A stretch of 27,631 nucleotides of DNA from an uncultured Desulfovibrionaceae bacterium (GCA_947178315.1 CAMWXW010000001.1:1-27631); one strand, 5' to 3'. Positions 4,205-20,447 are shown, counted from the first letter of the stretch. The notes: generated from the letters alone by a model not told the origin. Program-made: numbers and translations.

Positions 4205-6592
4205 ATGATGTACGATTCTGAAGAGTTGTTACAAGATTTTATAATTGAAGCAAAAGAACATTTAGAAAGCATAGAACCGAATATATTGCGTTTAGAGAAA
4301 GAACCTGAACATTGTAGTGAAATTCTAAATGAGATATTTAGACCTATGCATTCTCTCAAAGGAGCATCTGGATTTCTAGGGCTAGAGAAGATAAATAGTC
4401 TTGCACATAAAGCAGAAAGTGTTTTAGATGAATTGCGTAAAGGAGCAATGAATATTACAAGTGAAATCACAGATGCAATTCTCGTTACAACAGATGTCCT
4501 CGGTAAAATAGTTGAGCATCTTGAAGAGCATGGAGTTGAAGGTGATATTGACACAGGTGATATATCAGAAGTATTACAACGCATTCTATCAGGTGAGGAG
4601 ATAGCTTCAACTCAAGGTACAAATTCAATTGCAACAGCTACAGGTAGTGATACATCATCTACAAAAATGATATCAGAAAGTATCGTAGATATTGAAAAAG
4701 CAAAAGTACAATTTCTTGAAAATCCAGAGAATGCTGAGTATGTAACACTACTTCTTACTTCATTAAGAGCCTTACTTGAAGAGGTTGAAAAAGAAGACTC
4801 TGAAGATATTATTCATGCTATACAAAACACTATTGAAATCATAGAGAAAACACAGACAAAGGGAATGGATTTTACTCCTTTGCTTCCCTTATTGGAGCAA
4901 GAACTTGCAATTATTATTGACTTAAGCAAAGAACTGTTTTTACAACAGGAAACAGCCGGACAACATTGTATCAATGCATTGCAACGAGCATTAGATTCAT
5001 TTATGAGTGAGCCTTCCCTTGTAGAGAATGTAGATGTCTTATATGATGTGCTTTCTATTGCAAAAAAGTATGCAGAAGAGTGTGAACTTGATGATGCTGC
5101 TATGACGGCAAAAAATACAGCAGAAATTATCAGAAAGGCAAAAGAAGACTCTGTAGATATTACTTCTTTAGTAGGGATACTCTCTCAAGAGGTATCAATA
5201 TTGATAGAGTTGTTAGAACAGTCAAGTGATACACAAGGAGAAACACAGGAAGATATAGTCTCATCTGATCTACAAAATGAAGGTGAACAGCATATCGTAA
5301 AAGAGCAGAATGCAACTGTACATAAAGAGAAAAATAAGAAGGAGGGACAACAACAAAAGGATACAAAAGAGAGTGATAAAGTTAAACATAATGGATTCAT
5401 ACGGGTTGATCATCATAAACTTGATCAGCTAATGAATCTTATTGGTGAACTTATTATCACACGAAATAGATATAGTTTACTTGTTCGTTCTTTGGAAGAT
5501 GAAGAGAGAACTGTAAAAGATATAGCACGTATTGCACAGAGCCTTACAGAAACAACCTCTTCTATGGCACGTATATCAGATGCGTTACAAGATACCATTA
5601 TGCAAGTACGTATGGTTTCACTTTCTGCTACATTTAGTAGATTGCCCCGTTTAGTTCGAGATATCAGTAAGAAGAGTGGAAAAGAGGTAGAACTCCATAT
5701 CGTAGGTGAGGAAACAGAGCTTGATAAGAATATGGTAGAAGCTCTTGCTGATCCACTCTTACATTTGATACGTAATGCTGTTGATCATGGTATTGAATCC
5801 CCTGAAGAAAGGTTACATGTCGGAAAACCAGAAAAAGGGAATGTCTGGATACGAGCATTCCATAAAGGTAATTCTGTTGTCATAGAAATTGAAGATGATG
5901 GAAAAGGAATGGATCCCGAACGATTAAAAGAAGTCGCTTTAGAAAAAGGACTCATTACACCAGATGAAGCAAAGTTTATCACTAATGATCAAGCCTTTGA
6001 ACTTATTTTCTTACCCGGATTTTCCTCTGCGAAAGAGATTACTGATATCTCTGGAAGAGGTGTTGGTATGGATGTTGTGCGAACAAATATTAAGGGATTA
6101 AAGGGAACAATCTCAATCCATTCTGTGCTGGGTAGTGGAAGTATATTCACTCTTTCATTTCCTCTTACTCTTGCTATTATAGAAGCTCTTATGGTAGAGG
6201 TGAGAGGACAAACCTTTGCTATTCCTCTTGATACTGTATCAGAAACAACAAAAATCTCAAAAGTACATATCAAAAAAATACAAGATATAGAAGCGATTAC
6301 CTTGCGTGGAGAAGTATTAAGTATAGTTCATTTAGCTGATAAATTAGGATTTGCAAAAGAGCATACTATTCCAGATATTATTTCTGTTGTCATTGTTACT
6401 ATAAATAATAAAAAAGTTGGGTTTATTGTTGATAAGCTCCTTGAGAGACAAGAGATAGTTATTAAATCACTTGGAAATTATCCTATTGTTCATACTGGAA
6501 TTTCTGGAGCAACTATTACAGGAGATGGAGGAGTTATATTGATTATCAATCCTCATGATATTTATACTATGTCTACAAGGAAGTCTGTATAG
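4205..6592 (+). CDS. cheA: Chemotaxis histidine kinase CheA
   Basis: Hpt domain with FRPMHSLKG (His49), dimerization domain IRVD..KLDQLMNLIGEL, HATPase boxes (HLIRNAVDHGIE, DDGKG, FLPGFSSA, GRGVGMDVV) and a C-terminal CheW domain. RBS AGAGAGG. Confidence 0.97.
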   Translation: MMYDSEELLQDFIIEAKEHLESIEPNILRLEKEPEHCSEILNEIFRPMHSLKGASGFLGLEKINSLAHKAESVLDELRKGAMNITSEITDAILVTTDVLGKIVEHLEEHGVEGDIDTGDISEVLQRILSGEEIASTQGTNSIATATGSDTSSTKMISESIVDIEKAKVQFLENPENAEYVTLLLTSLRALLEEVEKEDSEDIIHAIQNTIEIIEKTQTKGMDFTPLLPLLEQELAIIIDLSKELFLQQETAGQHCINALQRALDSFMSEPSLVENVDVLYDVLSIAKKYAEECELDDAAMTAKNTAEIIRKAKEDSVDITSLVGILSQEVSILIELLEQSSDTQGETQEDIVSSDLQNEGEQHIVKEQNATVHKEKNKKEGQQQKDTKESDKVKHNGFIRVDHHKLDQLMNLIGELIITRNRYSLLVRSLEDEERTVKDIARIAQSLTETTSSMARISDALQDTIMQVRMVSLSATFSRLPRLVRDISKKSGKEVELHIVGEETELDKNMVEALADPLLHLIRNAVDHGIESPEERLHVGKPEKGNVWIRAFHKGNSVVIEIEDDGKGMDPERLKEVALEKGLITPDEAKFITNDQAFELIFLPGFSSAKEITDISGRGVGMDVVRTNIKGLKGTISIHSVLGSGSIFTLSFPLTLAIIEALMVEVRGQTFAIPLDTVSETTKISKVHIKKIQDIEAITLRGEVLSIVHLADKLGFAKEHTIPDIISVVIVTINNKKVGFIVDKLLERQEIVIKSLGNYPIVHTGISGATITGDGGVILIINPHDIYTMSTRKSV

Positions 6593-6595
6593 TAA

Positions 6596-6640
6596 AATAG
6601 AGTGAGGGGAAAGAAAATGCTCTTTCATTCTCACTCTATT
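6596..6640. terminator. Hairpin between convergent cheA and the CoA-ligase gene (probable bidirectional terminator)
   Basis: AATAGAGTGAG (6596-6606) pairs with CTCACTCTATT (6630-6640), with an inner GAAAGA/TCTTTC stem. Confidence 0.6.
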
Positions 6641-6647
6641 CTTAGAG

Positions 6648-7919
6648 CTAATCCCACTCTCGCTTATCTTCAATAGGACGTAAATTATTTCCTAAACTGT
6701 TGGGGGGAACTATCTTAACAGTAGGACGTAATTTTATCTTCTCTCGGAATACATGGAGTAATTCATCTTCACGAGCAAATGTTTGTGGTGCTTCTATGAA
6801 AAGAACAATCTCATCAATTCCTTCAGCATTAGTTACTTCTATCTGCCATCGCTTAATTTCTTCAAAGTCTGCCATTAGTTGTTCTACTTGGTGAGGGTAG
6901 ACAAATAATCCCTTAATTCGTGCTGTTGTATCTACTCTTCCTAAAATTCCACCTAATCGTGGTCCCATTCTACCACATGAGCAAGGGCTTGTATCTATAT
7001 AAGAAAGATCGCCTGTTGCAAATCGAATAAGAGGGTATGTTTTATTAAATACTGTAACAACAACTTCTCCAACCTCGCCTTCTTTTAAGGGGACTCCTGT
7101 ATCGGGGTGGCATATTTCTACATAGCATCGATTTGATATATGAAGTCCTGTATTGTAATAGCATTCATATCCAATACAACCTACATCTGCAGTACCGTAT
7201 GCTTGACGTAATACCATCTCAAATTTCTTTTCAAGCGTTGCTCTGGTTTTTTCTGTGAAACGCTCTCCAATAACAAAAGCAACTTCGAGAGCAAAATCTT
7301 TACGGAGGTTAAAGCCTTTCTCTTCTGCTTTTTGTGCAAGAAGTAAAAGATAGCTAGGTGCTCCTACAAAGCCTGTTACTTTTAATTTATTCATGATGTC
7401 AATATGAGTCATCATATCTGTGCTTTGTCCTGCTGGAATAACTGCACATTCAAGGTTACGTAATGGCTCTTCAAAAACAAGACCTGCTGGAGATAAGTGA
7501 TAATTAAATGCAACATGAACGATATCTCCGGGGCGAAATCCTATGGAGTAAAATGCTTCTGTATACCCCCAGTAGTCGTCATCTTTATCTTCTGGATCGA
7601 AAATAGGACCTGGAGAAAGGTAAATTCTGCGTAGTTCTCCTATATCCTTTGTTAACATACCTCCAAGACGAGGACCTATCGATTGTAAAAATATGAGTTC
7701 ACTCTTTTTCAAGATAGGAGCATGCTTTAAGTCTGATAACGAAGAAAATTTCTCTACATTAAACTGGGCTCTATCAAATCGCTTTTTTACATCGTCTGAA
7801 TATCTATATGCGTATTGTAGGAGTTCTTTTATTTGAGCAATATAGTATTGTTCACGTTCTCCAGCATCTAATACTTCTTTCCTACTATAAATACCTTCTG
7901 TTCTATCTTTTCTCGTCAT
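6648..7919 (-). CDS. Phenylacetate-CoA ligase (PaaK)-like adenylate-forming enzyme
   Basis: 423 aa. SPGPIFDP, GFRPGD, YGTADVGCIGYEC, EGEVGEVVVT, YPLIRFATGD and GRVD...IKG motifs of the PaaK family. RBS GGAGG upstream. The real substrate is unknown. Confidence 0.85.
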   Translation of the reverse strand: MTRKDRTEGIYSRKEVLDAGEREQYYIAQIKELLQYAYRYSDDVKKRFDRAQFNVEKFSSLSDLKHAPILKKSELIFLQSIGPRLGGMLTKDIGELRRIYLSPGPIFDPEDKDDDYWGYTEAFYSIGFRPGDIVHVAFNYHLSPAGLVFEEPLRNLECAVIPAGQSTDMMTHIDIMNKLKVTGFVGAPSYLLLLAQKAEEKGFNLRKDFALEVAFVIGERFTEKTRATLEKKFEMVLRQAYGTADVGCIGYECYYNTGLHISNRCYVEICHPDTGVPLKEGEVGEVVVTVFNKTYPLIRFATGDLSYIDTSPCSCGRMGPRLGGILGRVDTTARIKGLFVYPHQVEQLMADFEEIKRWQIEVTNAEGIDEIVLFIEAPQTFAREDELLHVFREKIKLRPTVKIVPPNSLGNNLRPIEDKREWD

Positions 7920-9458: not shown

Positions 9459-9995
9459 TATTTCTTTCCTTATACCGAATCTATATTAATTATCTTAAGA
9501 AATCTCTGTGTAAATGGTATCGATGAACTTGTAGGCAGAGTCATTCTAGCTTCTACTTACAAAGGAGTCTATTTGCATAGTAAGCATTTTTAGATATAAA
9601 GGCAAATCCTTTTATTCTATTTTTATAATGAGTCCTTGTTATCTTTTGTATCTTTCTTCTTATCGTATTCTTTCTGTGTCCCTATATGTCGATGTATGTA
9701 TAATATAGCTAATATGCTTTTGTAATTGAGTCTATTTCGTAAATGAAGAGTCTACTATCATAAGAGGATTTTCTTAGACACTTTATATGGTTGTATTGGT
9801 GAGAGTAGACGTAGAGAGTGGAAGCTTTGAAAGAGCCCCAATTTTTGCTTGCTTGTTTTTTATTTGTAACATATAGTAGTATATCAATAATATCTTGCTC
9901 TCCTTGCTACTATGGATATGTCCATATTCTACTATATCATGTTTTCGATCATCTCCTAATAGAGAGATAGAACAGTCTATTAAATAGGATACATT

Positions 9996-11351
9996 ATGAA
10001 ACATCGTTTATTTACAATGATACTTGTTGTATGGTGCTATGTATTTCATACAGTACTTGTGCTTCCATTAGCACGGAGTGCAGAACGTTCACTAACTCCT
10101 TTCCAATCAAATCAAGGTAGGGGTGAATTCTTTATAAAAGATATACCCTTTAATGAAAAAGTTCTTTTAGAACAGGTAGTAGCTCTGGCTTTAGAGGATA
10201 AAGGGAATTCAAAGCTCTTAGTCCCTGAGAGTGTTCTTTTTAGTACTATCTCTGAATATGTAGAGCCTATATCTGATTCTTCTCATGAACATGTTTCACT
10301 TGATATCCTTGCTATTGAAAATCAACATATAGCACATTCTCGACACTATAGTGAGTACACAGCTTTTGAATATAGCGAAGTAGAACGTCCATCTAAGGTA
10401 CATATTTATCGCTCTACAACTGCTCTGCCTTTATTTTATAAAGATATTGGGCTTGATGATGAGACAGCTCCTCTCCCTTTTACTATAATGCTTTTTGGTA
10501 ACTATATGCAAACAAAAGTAGTTACCTCTAATTTTCAAGGTTCGTCGCTAGTACAAGATATATCATTCGGGAATATATCATTTGGTGACTTTAATATGCC
10601 TCTTACTGGTTTTGCAGATATCAGAGAAGTAGAGCAACGTTTTGTCACTGGAGGAGCACGATTTGCTGTTAATGTCTTACCATTCTGGTCTGTTTATGGA
10701 ATACTTGCCTGTAGTACGGGAAGTACAAAATCAGCTGTCAATGTAAAAAATATCTATATGAAAGATGTTGAACTCAAAGCAAATACAGGGAATAGTTTCA
10801 CCGATGCTCTGATTAATGGAATAATCCAAGGAATGGGCGATAGGCTTCTTGTGCGTGAAGGCTCTATGCCATTTGTTATGGATTTTGACGCATTTTCTAC
10901 AGGAATTGGTACGACACTAGCTATTGGAGGAAAGCTCTTTTTTACTACTGTAGATACAAACTATGTTATTACAAGTGTTGAAAGTGCACAGATTATGATT
11001 CACACAATAAATGCTTCTGCACGAGTAGGTATGCACAAAACAAAGGCTGGACAGCAAATGGCGATATGGTTAGGTGCAAGCTATATGGAAAATATCGTTG
11101 GTAGCAAAAAGTTAGGAGCTGTGATGTCCGTAGAGCGTTTAAGCGATCTCTTTCAATTAGATGGTCTAGCTCAGAGTATTGTAGGGAATAAACCTGCTGA
11201 TATCAAATGGTCTGTAAATCAAAAACCCCTTAATGTCTTTAGTGCGCTTGTAGGACTTAGATATTCTCCAAAGAGAAATTTTGATATCGTAACAGAAGTT
11301 GGATTTATCGATAGAGTCAATGTTATGGTGAGTGCAGCGTATAACTTCTAA
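9996..11351 (+). CDS. Uncharacterised secreted outer-membrane beta-barrel protein with N-terminal extension
   Basis: Signal-like N-terminus, alternating-hydrophobic strands from about aa 143 and C-terminal AYNF (BAM signal). Motifs LP.F, VLPFWSVYG.L, G.GTTLA.G, IWLG..Y and TEVGF..R. Confidence 0.7.
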   Translation: MKHRLFTMILVVWCYVFHTVLVLPLARSAERSLTPFQSNQGRGEFFIKDIPFNEKVLLEQVVALALEDKGNSKLLVPESVLFSTISEYVEPISDSSHEHVSLDILAIENQHIAHSRHYSEYTAFEYSEVERPSKVHIYRSTTALPLFYKDIGLDDETAPLPFTIMLFGNYMQTKVVTSNFQGSSLVQDISFGNISFGDFNMPLTGFADIREVEQRFVTGGARFAVNVLPFWSVYGILACSTGSTKSAVNVKNIYMKDVELKANTGNSFTDALINGIIQGMGDRLLVREGSMPFVMDFDAFSTGIGTTLAIGGKLFFTTVDTNYVITSVESAQIMIHTINASARVGMHKTKAGQQMAIWLGASYMENIVGSKKLGAVMSVERLSDLFQLDGLAQSIVGNKPADIKWSVNQKPLNVFSALVGLRYSPKRNFDIVTEVGFIDRVNVMVSAAYNF

Positions 11352-11496
11352 AAAGAGGTACGTGCTAGATAGTGGCAACATGGCTTTATTCTTGATTCTG
11401 TAGCTATTCTATAGTAGAATAAATAAGTTATTTATGAGGGATATTCCTTTGTTGGAGTAAGTACTCTTGTACTAATTTGTGCTATAGAGGTAGGAT

Positions 11497-12468
11497 ATGG
11501 AAGTAGTCTTAGTCACAGGGACAGCAGGGTTTATTGGATTTCATACAGCGAAAGTATTATTGGAATCTGGATATGCTGTTATTGGTATAGATAATTTTTG
11601 TGACTATTATGATGTGAGGTTAAAAGAAGATAGACATAGAATTTTAGAGCAATATCCTCACTATACAGGACATAGAATAGATATTTGTGATGCTTCTCGT
11701 ATGGAGGCAATTTTTGAAGAAAACTCTGTTGACTATATTATTCATCTAGCTGCACAAGCAGGTGTTCGCTATAGTTTAGAGAAGCCTACACTCTATATTC
11801 AAACAAATGCACTTGGATTTGGTATTCTTATTGATTTAGCAAGACGATATGCAGTGAAGCATTTTATCTATGCCTCTTCTAGTTCTGTATATGGAGCAAA
11901 TACCCGTATTCCTTTCAAAGAAACAGATTGTGTTGAAGAACCCCTCAGTGTCTATGGTGCAACTAAGAAAGCAAATGAGTTGATTGCGTATTCATATAGC
12001 CATTTATTCCAGCTACCTACTACTGGATTGCGATTTTTTACAGTCTATGGTCCTTTTGGCAGACCTGATATGGCTTTCTTTAAGTTTACAAAAGCACTAT
12101 TCGAAGGGACACCAATAGATCTCTATAATAATGGTGATATGAGAAGGGATTTTACCTATATTGATGATATTGTAACTGGTATACTTGGTGTACTAAAGAG
12201 TATTCCTGATAAAGAGCCACCATATGTTATATATAATATAGGAAATACGATATGTGTACCTTTAGAGCAATGTATTGATATCTTAGAAAGAGCGACAGGT
12301 AAGAAAGCAAATATACGATATCTACCTATGCAAGATGGTGATATGTATGCAACCTATTCTGATATTACAGCATTACATAACGCTGTTGGCTATACTCCCA
12401 CAACATCAGTAGAAGAGGGCATACCTCGTTTTGTAGACTGGTATAAAGAATACTATAAAATAGCATAA
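11497..12468 (+). CDS. NAD-dependent epimerase, UDP-glucuronate 4-epimerase-like (extended SDR)
   Basis: GTAGFIG Rossmann motif, HLAAQAGVRYS, YASSSSVYG, catalytic YGATK, LRFFTVYGPFGRPDMA and RDFTYIDD. Confidence 0.93.
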   Translation: MEVVLVTGTAGFIGFHTAKVLLESGYAVIGIDNFCDYYDVRLKEDRHRILEQYPHYTGHRIDICDASRMEAIFEENSVDYIIHLAAQAGVRYSLEKPTLYIQTNALGFGILIDLARRYAVKHFIYASSSSVYGANTRIPFKETDCVEEPLSVYGATKKANELIAYSYSHLFQLPTTGLRFFTVYGPFGRPDMAFFKFTKALFEGTPIDLYNNGDMRRDFTYIDDIVTGILGVLKSIPDKEPPYVIYNIGNTICVPLEQCIDILERATGKKANIRYLPMQDGDMYATYSDITALHNAVGYTPTTSVEEGIPRFVDWYKEYYKIA

Positions 12469-16161: not shown

Positions 16162-18129
16162 ATGGATACTATAGAACATAAGCCCGAAATATTATCACCG
16201 GCTGGGGAAATGGAATCTGCTCTTGCAGCTATACATGCAGGTGCAAATGCTATATTTTTAGGACTTAAACATTTTTCTGCACGAATGAAGGCAGAAAATT
16301 TTACTATTCCAGATGTCGCTAAACTCACCGAACTTGCACATAAACATGATGCAAAAATATATATAGCACTCAATACGCTTGTGAAGCCTGATGATGTTTC
16401 ATCTCTCAGCAATCTTATTGCCCGTCTTGTGCATGATGTACAACCAGATGCGTTTATCATACAAGATGTAGGTATCATCTCCATTGCACGACAAGCACAT
16501 TTTAAGGGCGAAATTCATCTCTCGACATTGGCAAATATAACAAGTCTCGATGCTATGTATACCGCAAAAGCACTCGGTGCAGATAGAGTTGTATTGCCAA
16601 GAGAGATTCACTTAGATGAATTGCAATCTCTCAATGCATCGTGTCCTGAAGGGCTTGCCTTAGAACTCTTTATTCATGGAGCTCTTTGCTATATGGTTTC
16701 TGGACGTTGTTATTGGTCGAGCTATCTTGGAGGGAAGAGTGGATTACGGGGGCGATGTGTTCAACCGTGTCGTAGAGTATATACACAAGGAGGAAAGCAG
16801 GGGAGATTTTTCTCTAGTCTCGATCTTTCCCTAGAAAACTTGATTTATGATATTCTTCCTTTACACCGTATTTCTTCATGGAAGATAGAAGGACGTAAAA
16901 AAGGTCCACATTATGTATATCATGCAACAAAGGCATATCGACTCTTACGTGATTATCCCAATGAACCAGACGTCATTAAAGAAGCTCATACATTATTACA
17001 ATATGCCATTAGTAGAGAGACAACATCTTCTATTATAACATCATCTAAGAAAAATACTCCTGTTGAGCTATCAAAGCATACAAATACTGGTATTGCTATA
17101 GGGAATGTCATCAAAAAGGGAGATGGTTTTGTTCTACAGGTAGAAAAGCCGTTATATAGAGAAGATGCCATACGTATTGGATATGAAGATGAAGCATGGT
17201 ATACAACGATACATATAAAAGAAAATACTTCTCTTGGAGCTGAAATCCCTATTAGTTTTGGAACAAAAAAGACTCCTAAAAAAAGTGTGACAGCATTTTT
17301 AATCGATAGAAAAGCTACGCTTCCTAAGAAGGAGTTGCGAGCTTTGCGTAAGGAATTAGAAAGTATAGCACATACTGTGAGTAAACAGCCTTCATTTCGT
17401 CCTCAATTTGCACGCTCTGTTCAAACAGCCTTTACAGGGATACAGAATTTACAATCTGCTATACCAAAAGGAAAAGAGAATAAACAACAAGGACTCTCAC
17501 TATGGCTTTCTCCACGAACTGTTCGTGAGGTTTCTCGAACTATCACACCTAGAATAACATGGTGGCTTCCTCCTGTTGTATGGCATGAAGATGAGTCCTC
17601 ATTTCGTTCTCTTATACGTCATGTATGTAGGAATGGTGCGAAACGTTTTGTATGTAATGAATTTATGCAGTATTCACTATTACCGGAATCAGCAATAAAG
17701 ATGCTTGGTCCATTTTGTAATATATCTAATGTTGCAACACTACATCTTGCTAAGGAGTGTGGATATACAAAAGCTATTGCTAGTATGGAGCTAAGCAAGG
17801 AAGATTTACATAGTTTAGCTAGGCAGAGTCCTCTTCCTCTTGGTCTGGTAACAAAAGGATATTTCCCAATAGGGATTACTCGATTTAGTCCTCAAGGGAT
17901 ATCTTTAGATAGTTCCTTTCGCAGTGCCTTAAAAGAAGATTTTTGGGTGAGGAAGTATGGAAGTAGCTATTGGTTTTATCCAGCTTGGGAGTTGGATTTA
18001 TCTTCATTCGAGAATGAGCTTATAGGTATGGGATATTCTTTCTTTGTGCATATTACAGAACATGCACCTAAGGGTGTAGCTATTGTGCGTAAACAGAGTA
18101 CATTTAATTGGAATTTATCCTTATTATAA
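16162..18129 (+). CDS. Peptidase U32-family protein, long form (RlhA-like Fe-S RNA hydroxylase candidate)
   Basis: PEILSPAG, FSARMKAENF, E168 plus C176/C183/C199/C203 (HGALC..VSGRC...RGRCVQPCR) and KIEGRKK; 655 aa. Confidence 0.88.
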   Translation: MDTIEHKPEILSPAGEMESALAAIHAGANAIFLGLKHFSARMKAENFTIPDVAKLTELAHKHDAKIYIALNTLVKPDDVSSLSNLIARLVHDVQPDAFIIQDVGIISIARQAHFKGEIHLSTLANITSLDAMYTAKALGADRVVLPREIHLDELQSLNASCPEGLALELFIHGALCYMVSGRCYWSSYLGGKSGLRGRCVQPCRRVYTQGGKQGRFFSSLDLSLENLIYDILPLHRISSWKIEGRKKGPHYVYHATKAYRLLRDYPNEPDVIKEAHTLLQYAISRETTSSIITSSKKNTPVELSKHTNTGIAIGNVIKKGDGFVLQVEKPLYREDAIRIGYEDEAWYTTIHIKENTSLGAEIPISFGTKKTPKKSVTAFLIDRKATLPKKELRALRKELESIAHTVSKQPSFRPQFARSVQTAFTGIQNLQSAIPKGKENKQQGLSLWLSPRTVREVSRTITPRITWWLPPVVWHEDESSFRSLIRHVCRNGAKRFVCNEFMQYSLLPESAIKMLGPFCNISNVATLHLAKECGYTKAIASMELSKEDLHSLARQSPLPLGLVTKGYFPIGITRFSPQGISLDSSFRSALKEDFWVRKYGSSYWFYPAWELDLSSFENELIGMGYSFFVHITEHAPKGVAIVRKQSTFNWNLSLL

Positions 18130-18205: not shown

Positions 18206-18221
18206 TGTTCTATGTGGAACA
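18206..18221. promoter_or_regulatory. parS-like centromere site
   Basis: TGTTCTATGTGGAACA matches the parS palindrome TGTTCCACGTGGAACA at 14/16. Intergenic, about 2.4 kb from parA. Confidence 0.65.
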
Positions 18222-18299
18222 TAAAGAGTGAGAAAGACTATGTGTTTTTCTATGGTAGTATTACCCATCTAAGGTGATGGTATATATAAAGGATAATGT

Positions 18300-19238
18300 A
18301 TGTATCATAATACGTATTTGCGTAACAATAAAGTTTTACAACGTATACTTTATGGACAAAATCTACAAGTTCATAATCTTATATTACCTTTTTTACTTGT
18401 TGATTCAGATGAGTTAGTGCAGAGTACTACTGCATATTCTATGCAACCAGTAACACAGGATATGCTTTATAAACAACTTGCTATCTATACAAAAAAGGGC
18501 TTGCATGGTATTCTTCTATCCCTCTATACTACTGCTGAAATGCTCTCTCCTGCCCTTGTTGAAAAGCGATCATCTTCTCTTGCTAATAGTATACGTTATA
18601 TTAAACAGATGTATCCAGAGCTTCTGATTATTGTAGATATCTCTACAACACTTGCAAATAAGGACTATATGTTTGGTATAGAACGTAATGGTACAGTGAA
18701 TATTGATGCAACGATTGATATCCTTACTGAACTTGCTGTTCTTTATGCAAAAGCAGGTGTTGATATTCTTCTCCATTCTGGTATGCTACATACACTTACA
18801 CGAAGTATTAAAAAAACATTACAAAGTCATAGTATATATCATGTTGCTCTTATGAGCTATGCTATGCAGGCCAAAGATGCCTTTGCTAGTCTTTTGAAAG
18901 AGAGTCCAGAGAAAGAACATGTAGGTATATATGCTTCTAAAGAGCAGTTTATGGCAATTGCACATCATGAAGTGCGAAGTGGGGTAGATATTTTAGTGGT
19001 TAGCCCTCTTATGCTTTCGTTCGATGCTATGGCTACAATTGCAAATACTATTGATCTCCCTCTTTTTGCATTTCATACATCTACAGAATACTCTGTCCTT
19101 CGCTGTGCTATTGAGAATGGATTGATTGATGAAGAGGAGAGTCTTTGCTCTCTTTGTTTTGCTACACTGAGAGCTGGTGCAAAGGCAATTATAACCCCGT
19201 ATACCCCTGTCTTACTTGATATATTAAATAAATCGTAA
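18300..19238 (+). CDS. hemB: HemB/porphobilinogen synthase-fold protein with catalytic residues lost (intact ORF, candidate pseudoenzyme)
   Basis: Colinear HemB motifs: LILP, YPELLIIVD, DAT..IL...A..YAKAGVDI, ALMSYA, G.DIL.V.P, LPLFAF..S.EY, A.ENG.IDEE and RAGA..IIT.Y. The catalytic Lys positions are Q190 and S235, and no Zn-binding Cys are present. Confidence 0.8.
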   Translation: MYHNTYLRNNKVLQRILYGQNLQVHNLILPFLLVDSDELVQSTTAYSMQPVTQDMLYKQLAIYTKKGLHGILLSLYTTAEMLSPALVEKRSSSLANSIRYIKQMYPELLIIVDISTTLANKDYMFGIERNGTVNIDATIDILTELAVLYAKAGVDILLHSGMLHTLTRSIKKTLQSHSIYHVALMSYAMQAKDAFASLLKESPEKEHVGIYASKEQFMAIAHHEVRSGVDILVVSPLMLSFDAMATIANTIDLPLFAFHTSTEYSVLRCAIENGLIDEEESLCSLCFATLRAGAKAIITPYTPVLLDILNKS

Positions 19239-19427
19239 TGATATATTTTTATGACGATAGCTATCTGAGTTATGTTCAACATATAGAAGAGAGATACATT
19301 ATAAGTAAAGTTTTTATGACTTTCCTTTCTTCTATGAGTGTATATTTTATAGCTAAGCTCTTGAATGATATGTAAGAATGCTGTATACTGTGTTCAAGAA
19401 TATGAAGTTACATTATATAGGCGAACT

Positions 19428-20447
19428 ATGGATACAGTAACACATTGTCTTATTGGGACATTTACATACTCATTATTACCTCGAGTATATAAAGTAAAAA
19501 ATCTTTTATTAGCTTCTATTGTTTTAGCAAATATACCTGATATTGATGTATTGTTTGCGTACACACAAGAGCTTTATTTAGCACTTCATCGTGGAATAAC
19601 ACACTCGATATTTCTTGTGCCTCTGATATCGCTTCTTTTTGCTTATATCATTATGCGTTGGATTATCCCGAAGGAGACACAATGGCGTTATGCCACAATG
19701 TATGGCTATGTCGTCCTCCTTCTTATGGAGCATATCTATGCAGATGTTGTTACTAATTATGGGACAATGATTTTTATGCCTTTTAGTGCTATACGTATTC
19801 GTATCCCTGGTCTCTTTATTATTGATTTAGTTGTAATAGCATTACTTATCATAGGAAGTATTTTAGGATTCAAAAGACGATATAAAGGAGCATATTCTAT
19901 TGCAGTGCTTCTCTTCTTCTATCCTCTTCTATCCTATGGAATTGGTTCTTTTGTAGAGCAGAGTGTACACACACGTTATGCTCCTCTTCTCTCTGAAAAA
20001 AGCCGTGTTATTGTATATCCTGCACCATTTGCTCCTTTATATTGGAATGTGATTATTGAAGATGATACTACATATTATCAAACTAAAATAAATATAGTGA
20101 CACAATCTATTACACCTCTTATACAATATTCTAGACTTGATGATGAATTTATTGAGTCGCTCAAAAAACAAGGTCGATTTTTTCAACTCTATAGCGCATT
20201 TGCAGATGATATGCTTGTTATTACCAAACGTGATGCAGATAAAATATCTCTTGCTCCTTTATACACTATTCCTATAGGAGAGAAAGCCTTTGGGAATACA
20301 TCTTCCTTTTTAGAAATTACACTCCATGAAAAAGATAATGTAATTGAAAAAATAGATCTCTTTCCTGCTATATTTCTATGGCGTTATGATACTCCTGCTA
20401 TTATAGTTGAAGAGCCATTTAGCTTGCCTAATATGAGTGCCTTATAG
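19428..20447 (+). CDS. Metal-dependent membrane hydrolase (YdjM/LexA-regulated family)
   Basis: MDTVTH..IG start, PDID, HRGITHS, H...D..T.YGT and several TM segments. Start placed at 19428; the ORF track starts at 19365. Confidence 0.85.
   Translation: MDTVTHCLIGTFTYSLLPRVYKVKNLLLASIVLANIPDIDVLFAYTQELYLALHRGITHSIFLVPLISLLFAYIIMRWIIPKETQWRYATMYGYVVLLLMEHIYADVVTNYGTMIFMPFSAIRIRIPGLFIIDLVVIALLIIGSILGFKRRYKGAYSIAVLLFFYPLLSYGIGSFVEQSVHTRYAPLLSEKSRVIVYPAPFAPLYWNVIIEDDTTYYQTKINIVTQSITPLIQYSRLDDEFIESLKKQGRFFQLYSAFADDMLVITKRDADKISLAPLYTIPIGEKAFGNTSSFLEITLHEKDNVIEKIDLFPAIFLWRYDTPAIIVEEPFSLPNMSAL

What the first reader, a model, noticed from the sequence alone, without database searches (positions are those of the whole stretch)
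18300..19238. Full-length HemB (porphobilinogen synthase) homolog with a dismantled active site: candidate pseudoenzyme
Seen in sequence: an uninterrupted 312-aa ORF colinear with HemB from end to end. The first Schiff-base lysine motif MSYxxK reads MSYAMQ (Q190, codon 18867-18869), and the second motif D.LMVKP reads DILVVSP (S235, codon 19002-19004). The Zn-binding DxCxC...HCG segment reads DISTTLANKDYMFG (D113 at 18636) with no Cys. The lid segment that normally carries GDRxxYQ is about 8 aa shorter and lacks that motif, and PSDMMDG reads HSGMLHT. Established: both lysines are required for PBGS catalysis (E. coli K195/K247), and in Desulfovibrio vulgaris hemB lies among ahb heme-synthesis genes, none of which are here. 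Inference: this degree of divergence without a stop or frameshift suggests selection on the TIM-barrel fold for a non-catalytic role (scaffold, ligand sensor, regulator of a true HemB, or moonlighting as described for eukaryotic ALAD). Early decay after loss of tetrapyrrole synthesis is the alternative.
Basis: partly seen in the sequence, partly recalled or inferred. Interest (0 to 1): 0.8.

Follow-up and report, generated by a model that had tools for sequence, protein, structure and literature searches.

The report
Dead HemB kept under strong selection
A small-genome gut bacterium that can no longer make haem precursors still keeps a full-length, well-folded copy of the haem-pathway enzyme HemB. 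The copy has lost every residue needed for HemB chemistry yet is tightly protected by natural selection, so it must now do a different, still unknown job.

Summary
ORF 18300-19238(+) is colinear with porphobilinogen synthase (PF00490, E 3e-41). It reads Gln and Ser where the two Schiff-base lysines should be, has no metal-binding Cys or Asp, has a lid about 8 residues shorter, and reads HSGMLH for PSDMMD.

It is not a decaying gene. Strain variants differ by 33-36 synonymous but only 1-2 non-synonymous codons (omega 0.012-0.018, p=1e-20 against neutrality). That is tighter than both neighbouring genes. Four further lineages (45-71% identical, one of them a fragment) keep the same substitutions; the three with flanking DNA also keep the gene order and ribosome-binding site.

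The host is a reduced Desulfovibrionaceae MAG from an animal gut. hemA, hemL, hemC and hemD were not found in it or in its 96%-complete sister genome, although cytochrome c maturation genes are present. I infer haem auxotrophy.

The sister genome keeps an orphan HemB with both lysines and the Zn cysteines, but it departs from 25 of 111 conserved positions. It looks like an intermediate.

Inside the clade, constraint has moved away from the metal loop and lid. It now falls on a remodelled pocket core and a new invariant patch (KKTLQSHSIYH).

Verdict: a genuine HemB-derived pseudoenzyme of unknown function, most likely a binding protein. I found no description of it in the literature.

The parts
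18300..19238 (+). HemB/ALAD-fold pseudoenzyme gene (312 aa, P0001)
   Evidence: ORF. PF00490 E 3e-41 over its full length. AF2 model pLDDT 89.9, TM 0.87 to P. aeruginosa PBGS. Omega 0.012-0.018 between strains.
18300..18374 (+). N-terminal arm (residues 1-25). MY.N..LRNN..L is invariant in the clade but matches the canonical R.RRLR arm consensus at only 20% of positions.
   Evidence: G001 HemB shares the MYH start.
18636..18677 (+). Former metal-binding loop, DISTTLANKDYMFG. It has no Cys or Asp ligands and is now among the least conserved segments within the clade.
   Evidence: Pairwise identity within the clade is 0.23, against 0.88 in canonical PBGS.
18774..18791 (+). HSGMLH, replacing the active-site motif PSDMMD. 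H159, S160, G161, M162 and H164 are invariant in the clade.
18810..18869 (+). Near-invariant block KKTLQSHSIYHVA.M.YAMQ (residues 171-190). It includes the new invariant loop H177-V182 of the QSHSIYHV stretch and Gln190 (18867-18869) in place of the first Schiff-base Lys.
   Evidence: Loop 177-182 is 100% identical in the clade, against 0.35 in canonical PBGS. Third codon positions there are not unusually conserved, so the constraint acts on the protein.
18870..18938 (+). Degenerate, shortened active-site lid (residues 191-213).
   Evidence: About 8 residues are missing and the R, R and Q substrate ligands are gone. Clade identity is 0.23, against 0.83 in canonical PBGS. pLDDT is below 50 at residues 203-208.
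19002..19004 (+). Ser235 codon in place of the second Schiff-base Lys. It is Ser in every clade member, including fragment P0010.
18288..18293 (+). Shine-Dalgarno-like AAAGGA (AAGGAA in one of the four lineages), 6-9 nt before the ATG.
18240..18262 (+). Conserved upstream block with a -10-like TAGTAT (TAATAT in two lineages). I infer that the gene has its own promoter.
   Evidence: Alignment of the four upstream regions. The consensus promoter scan itself was not above chance.
16162..18129 (+). Upstream neighbour: a 655-aa Peptidase_U32 protein with an intact CX6CX15CX3C motif. The adjacency is conserved in all lineages that carry the pseudoenzyme.
19365..20447 (+). Downstream neighbour: a YdjM-family membrane protein. 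The adjacency is conserved.

Best explanation
The gene encodes a HemB-derived pseudoenzyme. It keeps the porphobilinogen-synthase TIM barrel and N-terminal arm, cannot carry out PBGS chemistry, and is retained under strong purifying selection in a clade of genome-reduced gut Desulfovibrionaceae. These bacteria appear to be haem auxotrophs, because the rest of the early tetrapyrrole pathway was not found.

Shown:
- The fold is retained.
- Both Schiff-base lysines, all metal ligands, the lid and the substrate-carboxylate ligands are lost.
- Selection is strong.
- The pathway genes were not found.
- Constraint has moved from the metal loop and lid to the remodelled strand-end core of the old pocket (H159-S160-G161, H164, Q190, D193, S235), to a new invariant patch (K171-H181, H223-E224, S227), and to a re-written N-terminal arm.

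Inferred:
- The protein works by binding, not by Schiff-base catalysis.
- The most likely mode is a homo-oligomer, like PBGS, whose lid-less, His-rich pocket and/or new surface patch holds a small ligand, a metal or a protein partner.
- It most likely arose when the genus ancestor lost the pathway but kept HemB for a second role. The sister genome's orphan HemB (lysines present, 25 of 111 conserved positions changed) looks like an earlier stage of this process.
For: Homology and fold.

Catalytic residues lost. Only 29 of 111 conserved columns are kept in all four clade members.

Selection:
- 33:1 and 36:2 synonymous to non-synonymous codon differences between strains, omega 0.012-0.018.
- p=1e-20 against neutrality, and tighter than YdjM and U32 in the same strains.
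- Omega is 0.14 to the 71%-identical orthologue, inside the neighbours' range of 0.04-0.21.

Orthologues: the three full-length orthologues have intact frames, the same replacements and the same gene order; fragment P0010 shows the same replacements over its 154 residues. The SD sequence and an upstream block are conserved in all four lineages with full-length genes.

Pathway:
- One ALAD hit only in the genome.
- hemA, hemC and hemD gave no match in G000 (74% complete) or G001 (96% complete). hemL gave only sub-threshold aminotransferase hits (99-104 bits; cut-off 527). All four were found in relatives.
- hemC is present in 38 of 41 relatives.
- Ccm genes are present in both genomes, and cytochrome bd in G001.

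Shifted constraint. Constraint at protein level rather than DNA level.

Ancestry:
- The clade joins the tree next to G001 inside Desulfovibrionaceae.
- G001 HemB is the best non-clade match to the clade profile among 400 family genomes, at 176 bits against 161 or less for the rest.
- G001 departs from the conserved columns at 25 positions, against a canonical maximum of 8.
Against: - There is no evidence of transcription or of the protein; no RNA run was listed.
- No partner or ligand is identified, so 'binding' is an inference from residue patterns only.
- I could not inspect model coordinates, so the spatial clustering of the invariant residues is deduced from secondary-structure positions and not measured.
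- Oligomeric state is untested.
- G000 is only 74% complete, so absence of the pathway there leans on four independent misses and on the sister genome.
- Deep dN/dS values rest on a saturated dS above 1.
- Invariant new His, Ser and Asp residues in the old pocket would also fit a new catalytic activity.
Confidence: 0.85

Rival explanations
1. Neo-enzyme: the barrel has acquired a new catalytic activity that uses the invariant His159/His164/Ser160/Ser235/Asp113/Asp193 set in the old pocket. It would then not be a true pseudoenzyme.
For: The replacements at the former catalytic positions are themselves invariant across lineages that are only 45% identical. Strain-level omega is extremely low. 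The strand-end core of the pocket stays conserved while only the lid and metal loop drift.
Against: There is no match to any other enzyme family. The lid that shields PBGS chemistry is degenerate and variable. There is no metabolic gene context: the neighbours are U32, YdjM and ParAB. The strongest new conservation (residues 171-182) lies at the helix-to-strand end of the barrel, away from the pocket.
Confidence: 0.2
2. Early neutral decay: a hemB pseudogene-in-waiting that has not yet acquired a stop after the pathway was lost.
For: The pathway genes were not found. The protein has diverged massively from canonical PBGS and evolves faster than most neighbours over long distances.
Against: There are 33-36 synonymous against 1-2 non-synonymous differences between strains, p=1e-20. 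Frames are intact in the three full-length orthologues, with dS above 1 between them, and fragment P0010 is open over its 154 residues. The replacement residues are invariant and the SD sequence is conserved.
Confidence: 0.02
3. Old paralogue rather than a degraded orthologue. In this reading the genus ancestor carried a canonical hemB and a divergent hemB-like gene behind the large U32 gene. The window's lineage then lost the canonical copy, and the sister genome G001 lost the divergent one. This concerns origin only and is compatible with the best explanation for function.
For: The two HemB homologues lie behind different U32 paralogues in different neighbourhoods. In G001 the large U32 gene is followed by about 1 kb of non-coding DNA holding a weak in-frame match to the N-terminus of the clade profile. 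The match scores 6.6 bits; 1 of 1000 shuffles and 3 of 724 real windows score as high.
Against: The relic match is weak, and one of 42 control windows from G001 scored higher. Each genome has only one ALAD-family gene. No genome among the 400 family members searched shows a clade-type copy beside a canonical one. The clade and G001 HemB share derived residues, namely the MYH start, R to H, and F to S.
Confidence: 0.3

Closest known systems
Porphobilinogen synthase / 5-aminolevulinate dehydratase (HemB, PF00490; e.g. P. aeruginosa 2c16/1b4k, Chlorobium 1w1z, E. coli 1b4e/1i8j)
   Same: Colinear over the full length. Predicted TIM barrel plus N-terminal arm, TM 0.83-0.87. Retains structural and framing residues: the D of DxCxC, GAD, S of PSD, SY, P after the second Lys, GEY, RAG and IIT.
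   Different: Both Schiff-base Lys are replaced (Gln190, Ser235). There is no Cys3 Zn site and no Asp-rich Mg site. The allosteric-Mg Glu is replaced by Ile/Val. The lid is shortened and lacks its Arg/Arg/Gln. The Ser of VSGEY varies (kept only in the window protein and fragment P0010), and the C-terminal Tyr that binds the P-site carboxylate is Pro. It scores less than half the NCBIfam equivalog cut-off. The rest of the pathway was not found in the genome.
Orphan HemB of the sister genome G001 (MAG Desulfovibrionaceae bacterium WFFMC_MAG_023; L003/L033, P0160)
   Same: Same genus, and the nearest relative of the clade in the tree and by profile score. It is also encoded without hemA/L/C/D, also lies directly behind a U32 gene, and shares the MYH N-terminus.
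   Different: It keeps both Lys, the Cys3 site and PSDMMDG. It has still changed 25 of 111 conserved positions, including the lid P/F/G/D and the VSGEY Ser, which is now Leu. It is only 30% identical to the window protein. It lies behind the other (407-aa) U32 paralogue.
Eukaryotic ALAD moonlighting as the proteasome-interacting protein CF-2 (Guo et al. 1994; cited in PMC7435893 and PMC13564367)
   Same: It is a precedent that the PBGS oligomer can have a non-catalytic, protein-binding role.
   Different: In that case the same active enzyme moonlights. Here catalysis is gone and the host is a bacterium. No interaction was tested.
Pseudoenzymes that survive loss of their pathway
   Same: A lone pathway enzyme is retained with its catalytic residues replaced and its sequence still conserved.
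   Different: It is a different enzyme family. For HemB I found no such case in the literature library.

Membership tests
Porphobilinogen synthase (functional HemB, EC 4.2.1.24) | Full-length homology to the ALAD family above Pfam's gathering score | tested here: met
   PF00490 at 142 bits against a cut-off of 24.6, residues 7-305 to profile positions 7-314 of 317.
Porphobilinogen synthase (functional HemB, EC 4.2.1.24) | Score above NCBIfam's equivalog cut-off for porphobilinogen synthase | tested here: not met
   NF006762 at 139.3 bits against a cut-off of 297; NF009923 at 99 against 507.
Porphobilinogen synthase (functional HemB, EC 4.2.1.24) | Two Schiff-base lysines (E. coli K195 and K247; motifs SYxxK and MVKP) | tested here: not met
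   Gln190 and Ser235. The same holds in all clade members. Both Lys columns are 100% conserved in 96 canonical sequences.
Porphobilinogen synthase (functional HemB, EC 4.2.1.24) | Active-site metal site (Cys3 Zn, DxCxC..C) or its Asp-rich Mg equivalent | tested here: not met
   The loop reads DISTTLANKDYMFG, with Ser, Thr and Phe at the three ligand columns.
Porphobilinogen synthase (functional HemB, EC 4.2.1.24) | Active-site lid with Arg/Arg/Gln, and the Ser/Tyr ligands of the substrate carboxylates | tested here: not met
   The lid is about 8 residues shorter and FGDR..YQMD is absent. The Ser of VSGEY varies among clade members. The C-terminal Tyr is Pro300.
Porphobilinogen synthase (functional HemB, EC 4.2.1.24) | TIM-barrel fold with N-terminal arm | tested here: met
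   AF2 pLDDT 89.9 and pTM 0.88. Foldseek TM 0.87 to 2c16_A. The ESM Atlas model has pTM 0.84. All of these are predictions.
Porphobilinogen synthase (functional HemB, EC 4.2.1.24) | Pathway context: enzymes that make ALA and consume PBG (hemA/hemL, hemC, hemD) in the genome | tested here: not met
   No match over threshold in G000 (74% complete) or G001 (96% complete), while both positive-control relatives have all four. G000 is incomplete.
Porphobilinogen synthase (functional HemB, EC 4.2.1.24) | Catalytic activity (ALA to PBG) | not testable with these tools
   This needs an enzyme assay or hemB complementation.
Pseudoenzyme (catalytically dead homologue kept by selection) | Clear homologue of an enzyme with its essential catalytic residues replaced | tested here: met
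Pseudoenzyme (catalytically dead homologue kept by selection) | Purifying selection on the coding sequence | tested here: met
   Omega 0.012-0.018 between strains, p=1e-20. Omega 0.14 to the nearest orthologue.
Pseudoenzyme (catalytically dead homologue kept by selection) | The protein is made and has a non-catalytic function | not testable with these tools
   No RNA run was listed. Only conserved expression signals are available as indirect evidence.

The most novel reading that the evidence does not exclude
The dead HemB is a purpose-built binding module of haem-auxotrophic symbionts. In one version, its lid-less, His-lined former active site holds haem, a porphyrin or a metal, and the protein acts as a cytoplasmic tetrapyrrole chaperone or sensor for the cytochrome maturation machinery. 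In the other, it is an obligate partner of the adjacent RlhA-sized U32 iron-sulfur protein. If either is true, and if this scan's dead HemC and HemL relics are real, early tetrapyrrole enzymes would have a general second function that outlives the pathway.
Probability: 0.15. Interest if true: 0.85.

Novelty: new variant of a known kind. Interest (0 to 1): 0.62.

Why it matters
HemB is among the most conserved enzymes known; in 96 canonical sequences, 111 positions are at least 90% conserved.

This case is a rare natural experiment. A lineage has stripped out every catalytic element while selection holds the fold even more tightly than it holds the neighbouring genes. A probable intermediate, an orphan HemB with its lysines intact but already eroded, survives in the sister genome.

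That points to an unrecognised second function of the PBGS scaffold in bacteria. So far only the eukaryotic proteasome interaction hints at such a role.

It also gives a defined set of residues to test (HSGM.H, KKTLQSHSIYH, Q190, S235).

For annotation, proteins like this are automatically called 'porphobilinogen synthase', as NCBI names the sister genome's orphan HemB. Such names inflate predicted haem-synthesis capacity in gut symbionts. About a dozen other lysine-less HemB homologues turned up in the same search, so the phenomenon may be recurrent.

Tried and rejected
1. An overlapping nucleotide element as the cause of the invariant block 171-190. Rejected: third-codon positions there are no more conserved than elsewhere.

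2. A displaced catalytic lysine (K192 or another). Rejected: K192 varies (K/K/E/S), and the invariant lysines (K66, K102, K151, K171, K172, K295) lie in helices or at strand starts.

3. A frameshift in the upstream U32 gene of one strain (L127). Rejected: the 7-bp gap abuts a run of N, so it is a scaffold join.

4. A general U32-hemB linkage. No U32 gene was found beside hemB in about 100 loci from other taxa. In this genus the two HemB homologues follow different U32 paralogues. The point is left unexplained.

5. The first AF2 run, with 5 sequences, gave pLDDT 50.6 and was unusable. It was repeated with 120 sequences.

6. YN00 dN/dS failed on nearly all pairs, so NG86 was used. Deep pairs are saturated, so I relied on the strain variants.

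7. The ESM Atlas feature search excluding PF00490 gave no usable hit.

8. No RNA-seq run was listed for the gene.

9. The ATP/ADP translocase search (PF03219) was uninformative, because nothing rang even in the controls.

10. The literature searches found no bacterial HemB pseudoenzyme.

11. ahb genes and D. vulgaris synteny were not tested.

Full report
**1. The observation**

The window holds an uninterrupted 312-codon ORF at 18300-19238 on the + strand. Pfam's ALAD family matches it end to end: residues 7-305 align to profile positions 7-314 of 317, E 3.1e-41. Against NCBI's equivalog model for porphobilinogen synthase it reaches only 139 bits, where the cut-off is 297.

The alignment to solved PBGS structures pairs SYAAK with SYAMQ, DIVMVKP with DILVVSP and PSDMMDG with HSGMLHT.
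- Gln190 at 18867-18869
- Ser235 at 19002-19004
- DISTTLANKDYMFG at 18636-18677
- HSGMLH at 18774-18791

I built an alignment with 96 canonical PBGS taken from fetched loci. In it, 111 columns are at least 90% conserved. The window protein departs at 75 of them. Canonical sequences depart at a median of 2 and at most 8.

What is lost:
- both Schiff-base lysines
- the three metal-ligand positions
- the Glu of the allosteric Mg site
- the lid motif (about 8 residues deleted)
- the residues that hold the two substrate carboxylates

Lys192, two residues after the first lysine position, is not conserved among orthologues, so there is no displaced catalytic lysine.

**2. The fold**

With a 120-sequence alignment, AlphaFold2 gives pLDDT 89.9 and pTM 0.88. 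Only the lid (residues 203-208) falls below 50. Foldseek's best PDB matches are all PBGS, with TM 0.87 to P. aeruginosa 2c16_A. The ESM Atlas holds an independent model with pTM 0.84 and TM 0.83 to an ALAD cluster. A first model from only five sequences was poor.

**3. Is it decaying?**

It is not. The 5.8-billion-protein search found three full-length relatives at 71, 49 and 45% identity (P0002-P0004). The exhaustive profile search added a fragment of a fifth lineage (P0010). After that, scores drop from 554, 539 and 219 bits to 143 or less for canonical PBGS.

All of these read Gln and Ser at the two lysine positions, Leu for the Arg after PSDMMDG and Pro for the C-terminal Tyr. The four full-length proteins also read His-Ser-Gly-Met-x-His; fragment P0010 starts inside that motif. 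The contigs of P0002-P0004 show the same order, infA(-), U32 (655-667 aa), ALAD-like, then YdjM where the contig reaches that far. All four lineages share an AAAGGA-type ribosome-binding site and an upstream block with a -10-like hexamer.

Between these lineages dS is saturated (above 1). Even so, omega to the nearest orthologue is 0.14, inside the 0.04-0.21 range of thirteen neighbouring genes.

The decisive data are strain variants of the window gene itself, from other samples (P0158, P0159):
- They differ from the window by 33-36 synonymous but only 1-2 non-synonymous codons.
- dS is 0.18-0.20, dN is 0.002-0.0035, and omega is 0.012-0.018.
- 77.5% of random single-base changes in this ORF would be non-synonymous, so the result has p=1e-20.
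- The gene is more constrained than YdjM (44:24, Fisher p=1.7e-4) and U32 (42:12, p=0.014) in the same strains.

**4. Genome context**

The window belongs to an 855-kb, 169-contig MAG that is 74% complete and about 36% GC. The one run listed as holding part of the stretch (0.06 of the sampled words) is a gut metagenome, of an animal by its record. Its only same-genus relative in the genome library, G001, is titled 'MAG: Desulfovibrionaceae bacterium WFFMC_MAG_023' (1.5 Mb, 96% complete).

The genome has a single ALAD-family gene. The results for the rest of the early pathway:
- GlutR_N (hemA), Porphobil_deam (hemC) and HEM4 (hemD) give no match in G000 or G001. They give strong matches in two family relatives.
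- The hemL model finds only sub-threshold aminotransferases in G000 and G001.
- hemC is present in 38 of 41 relatives. It is missing in both members of this genus and in one other MAG.

Both genomes nevertheless encode cytochrome c maturation proteins, and G001 encodes cytochrome bd. I therefore infer that the genus is a haem auxotroph that still uses haem.

**5. Origin**

G001 has a HemB with both lysines, the Cys3 site and PSDMMDG. It is still aberrant:
- It departs at 25 of the 111 conserved columns. These include the lid Pro/Phe/Gly/Asp and the Ser of VSGEY.
- Its tree branch is 1.28, against a median of 0.34.
- Its nearest database relative is only 52% identical.

In the tree, the dead clade (100% support) joins on a very long stem next to G001 and G020 inside Desulfovibrionaceae. 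Among 400 genomes of the family, the clade profile scores 569 bits on G000, 176 on G001 and 161 or less on all the rest. No genome carries a clade-type copy beside a canonical one. The clade and G001 share derived residues such as the MYH start.

This fits a series: canonical enzyme, then orphan eroding HemB (G001), then fully dead HemB.

One complication remains. The two genes lie behind different U32 paralogues in unrelated neighbourhoods. In G001 the large U32 gene is followed by about 1 kb of non-coding DNA. That DNA holds a weak in-frame match to the N-terminus of the clade profile, at 6.6 bits. One of 1000 shuffles and 3 of 724 real windows score as high, but one of 42 local control windows scored higher. 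An old duplication with reciprocal loss therefore cannot be excluded.

**6. What it does**

Within the clade, the segments that are most conserved in real PBGS have become the least conserved. The metal loop has pairwise identity 0.23 (0.88 in canonical PBGS), and the lid 0.23 (0.83 in canonical PBGS).

Conservation is now highest in these segments:
- residues 126-153: 0.80
- helix 168-176: 0.83
- loop 177-182 (HSIYHV, inside the invariant run KKTLQSHSIYHVA): 1.00, against 0.35 in canonical PBGS, with no match to the canonical consensus
- strand 183-190: 0.85
- strand 291-301: 0.86

Third codon positions in this block are not unusually conserved, so the constraint acts on the protein and not on an embedded DNA or RNA element. 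The replacements at former catalytic positions (H159, G161, H164, Q190, D193, S235) are invariant.

Without either lysine, Schiff-base chemistry is excluded; this follows from established PBGS enzymology. Because the carboxylate ligands are also lost, canonical ALA or PBG binding is unlikely.

My best reading, which is inference, is a binding protein built on the PBGS oligomer. It would use the open, His-lined remnant of the pocket, the new patch near the old allosteric-Mg and arm interface, or both. A new catalytic activity is the main rival. A role in handling scavenged haem, or a partnership with the adjacent U32 Fe-S protein, is attractive but untested.

**7. Comparison and novelty**

The full-text library holds no report of a bacterial HemB pseudoenzyme. 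The only known non-catalytic role of PBGS is the eukaryotic proteasome interaction.

Earlier notes of this scan, which I did not check, describe dead HemC and HemL relics that survive loss of the pathway in other phyla, and an ALAD paralogue in an NRPS cluster. This finding would be the HemB counterpart.

In passing, the profile search surfaced about 13 unrelated HemB homologues lacking one or both lysines. Two of them lie in unrelated gene contexts.

**8. Verdict**

Neutral decay is refuted. The function remains unknown, and origin as orthologue or paralogue is unresolved.

This is a new variant of a known kind: a pseudoenzyme, here derived from HemB. It is of moderate to high interest because the selection signal is unusually clean and a likely evolutionary intermediate is available.

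Noticed in passing
L033:6001-6969 (G001 contig C10; also L003:1498-2466): The sister genome keeps an orphan HemB with both lysines and the Zn cysteines, although hemA/L/C/D were not found at 96% completeness. It departs at 25 of 111 conserved PBGS positions (lid P/F/G/D lost; VSGEY Ser is Leu) and sits on a branch about 4 times longer than typical. NCBI names it porphobilinogen synthase. It is possibly an intermediate on the way to a pseudoenzyme.
   Followed up: partly
L118:4673-6637 (G001 contig C22): G001's 654-aa U32 protein is 51% identical to the window's. It has lost two of the four cysteines of the CX6CX15CX3C motif, which the window, L022 and L025 copies keep, and its Pfam score is much lower (118 against 194 bits). 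It may be a second degenerating enzyme.
   Followed up: partly
L118:6638-7683: About 1 kb of non-coding DNA follows G001's large U32 gene. It holds a weak in-frame match (around 7338-7560, ..SLRNNTLITHLIY..) to the N-terminus of the dead-HemB profile. The match scores 6.6 bits; 1 of 1000 shuffles and 3 of 724 real windows score as high. It is a possible gene relic.
   Followed up: partly
window 16162-18129 with 18300-19238; L033 4672-5895 with 6001-6969: In both genomes of the genus a HemB homologue lies directly downstream of a Peptidase_U32 gene, but of different paralogues (655 aa and 407 aa). No U32 gene lies beside hemB in about 100 loci from other taxa. This is either coincidence or a functional link.
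   Followed up: partly
P0043, P0047, P0067, P0074, P0076, P0078, P0082, P0100, P0103, P0105, P0117, P0135, P0143 (e.g. L124:210-1181, L125:5364-6335): Thirteen other HemB homologues, mutually unrelated (43% identical or less), lack one or both Schiff-base lysines in the alignment. They appear among the top 150 hits of the profile search. P0078 lies just before an Aminotran_3 gene, and P0117 lies near Aminotran_3, FGGY kinase and class II aldolase genes. Dead or repurposed HemB may be recurrent.
   Followed up: partly
L025:9154-10000 and 10925-12028: In the most divergent lineage, the dead-HemB gene is flanked by unusually long non-coding spacers (about 850 and 1100 bp, against 170 and 126 bp in the window). 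This suggests ongoing genome erosion around a gene that is itself kept intact.
   Followed up: no
G000 contigs C130:360-986 and C7:91-666; G001 C9:164252-164815: Cytochrome c maturation (Cytochrom_C_asm) genes are present although the tetrapyrrole pathway was not found. The CcmC-like matches show in-frame stops (1 TAG in G000, 2 TAA in G001). These may be gene boundaries or decay.
   Followed up: no
window 18208-18221; L022 about 9915-9930: Upstream of the gene, lineage A has a perfect palindrome, TTCCACGTGGAA, which the window has in imperfect form (TTCTATGTGGAA). It could be a regulator binding site. It is not conserved in lineages B and C.
   Followed up: no
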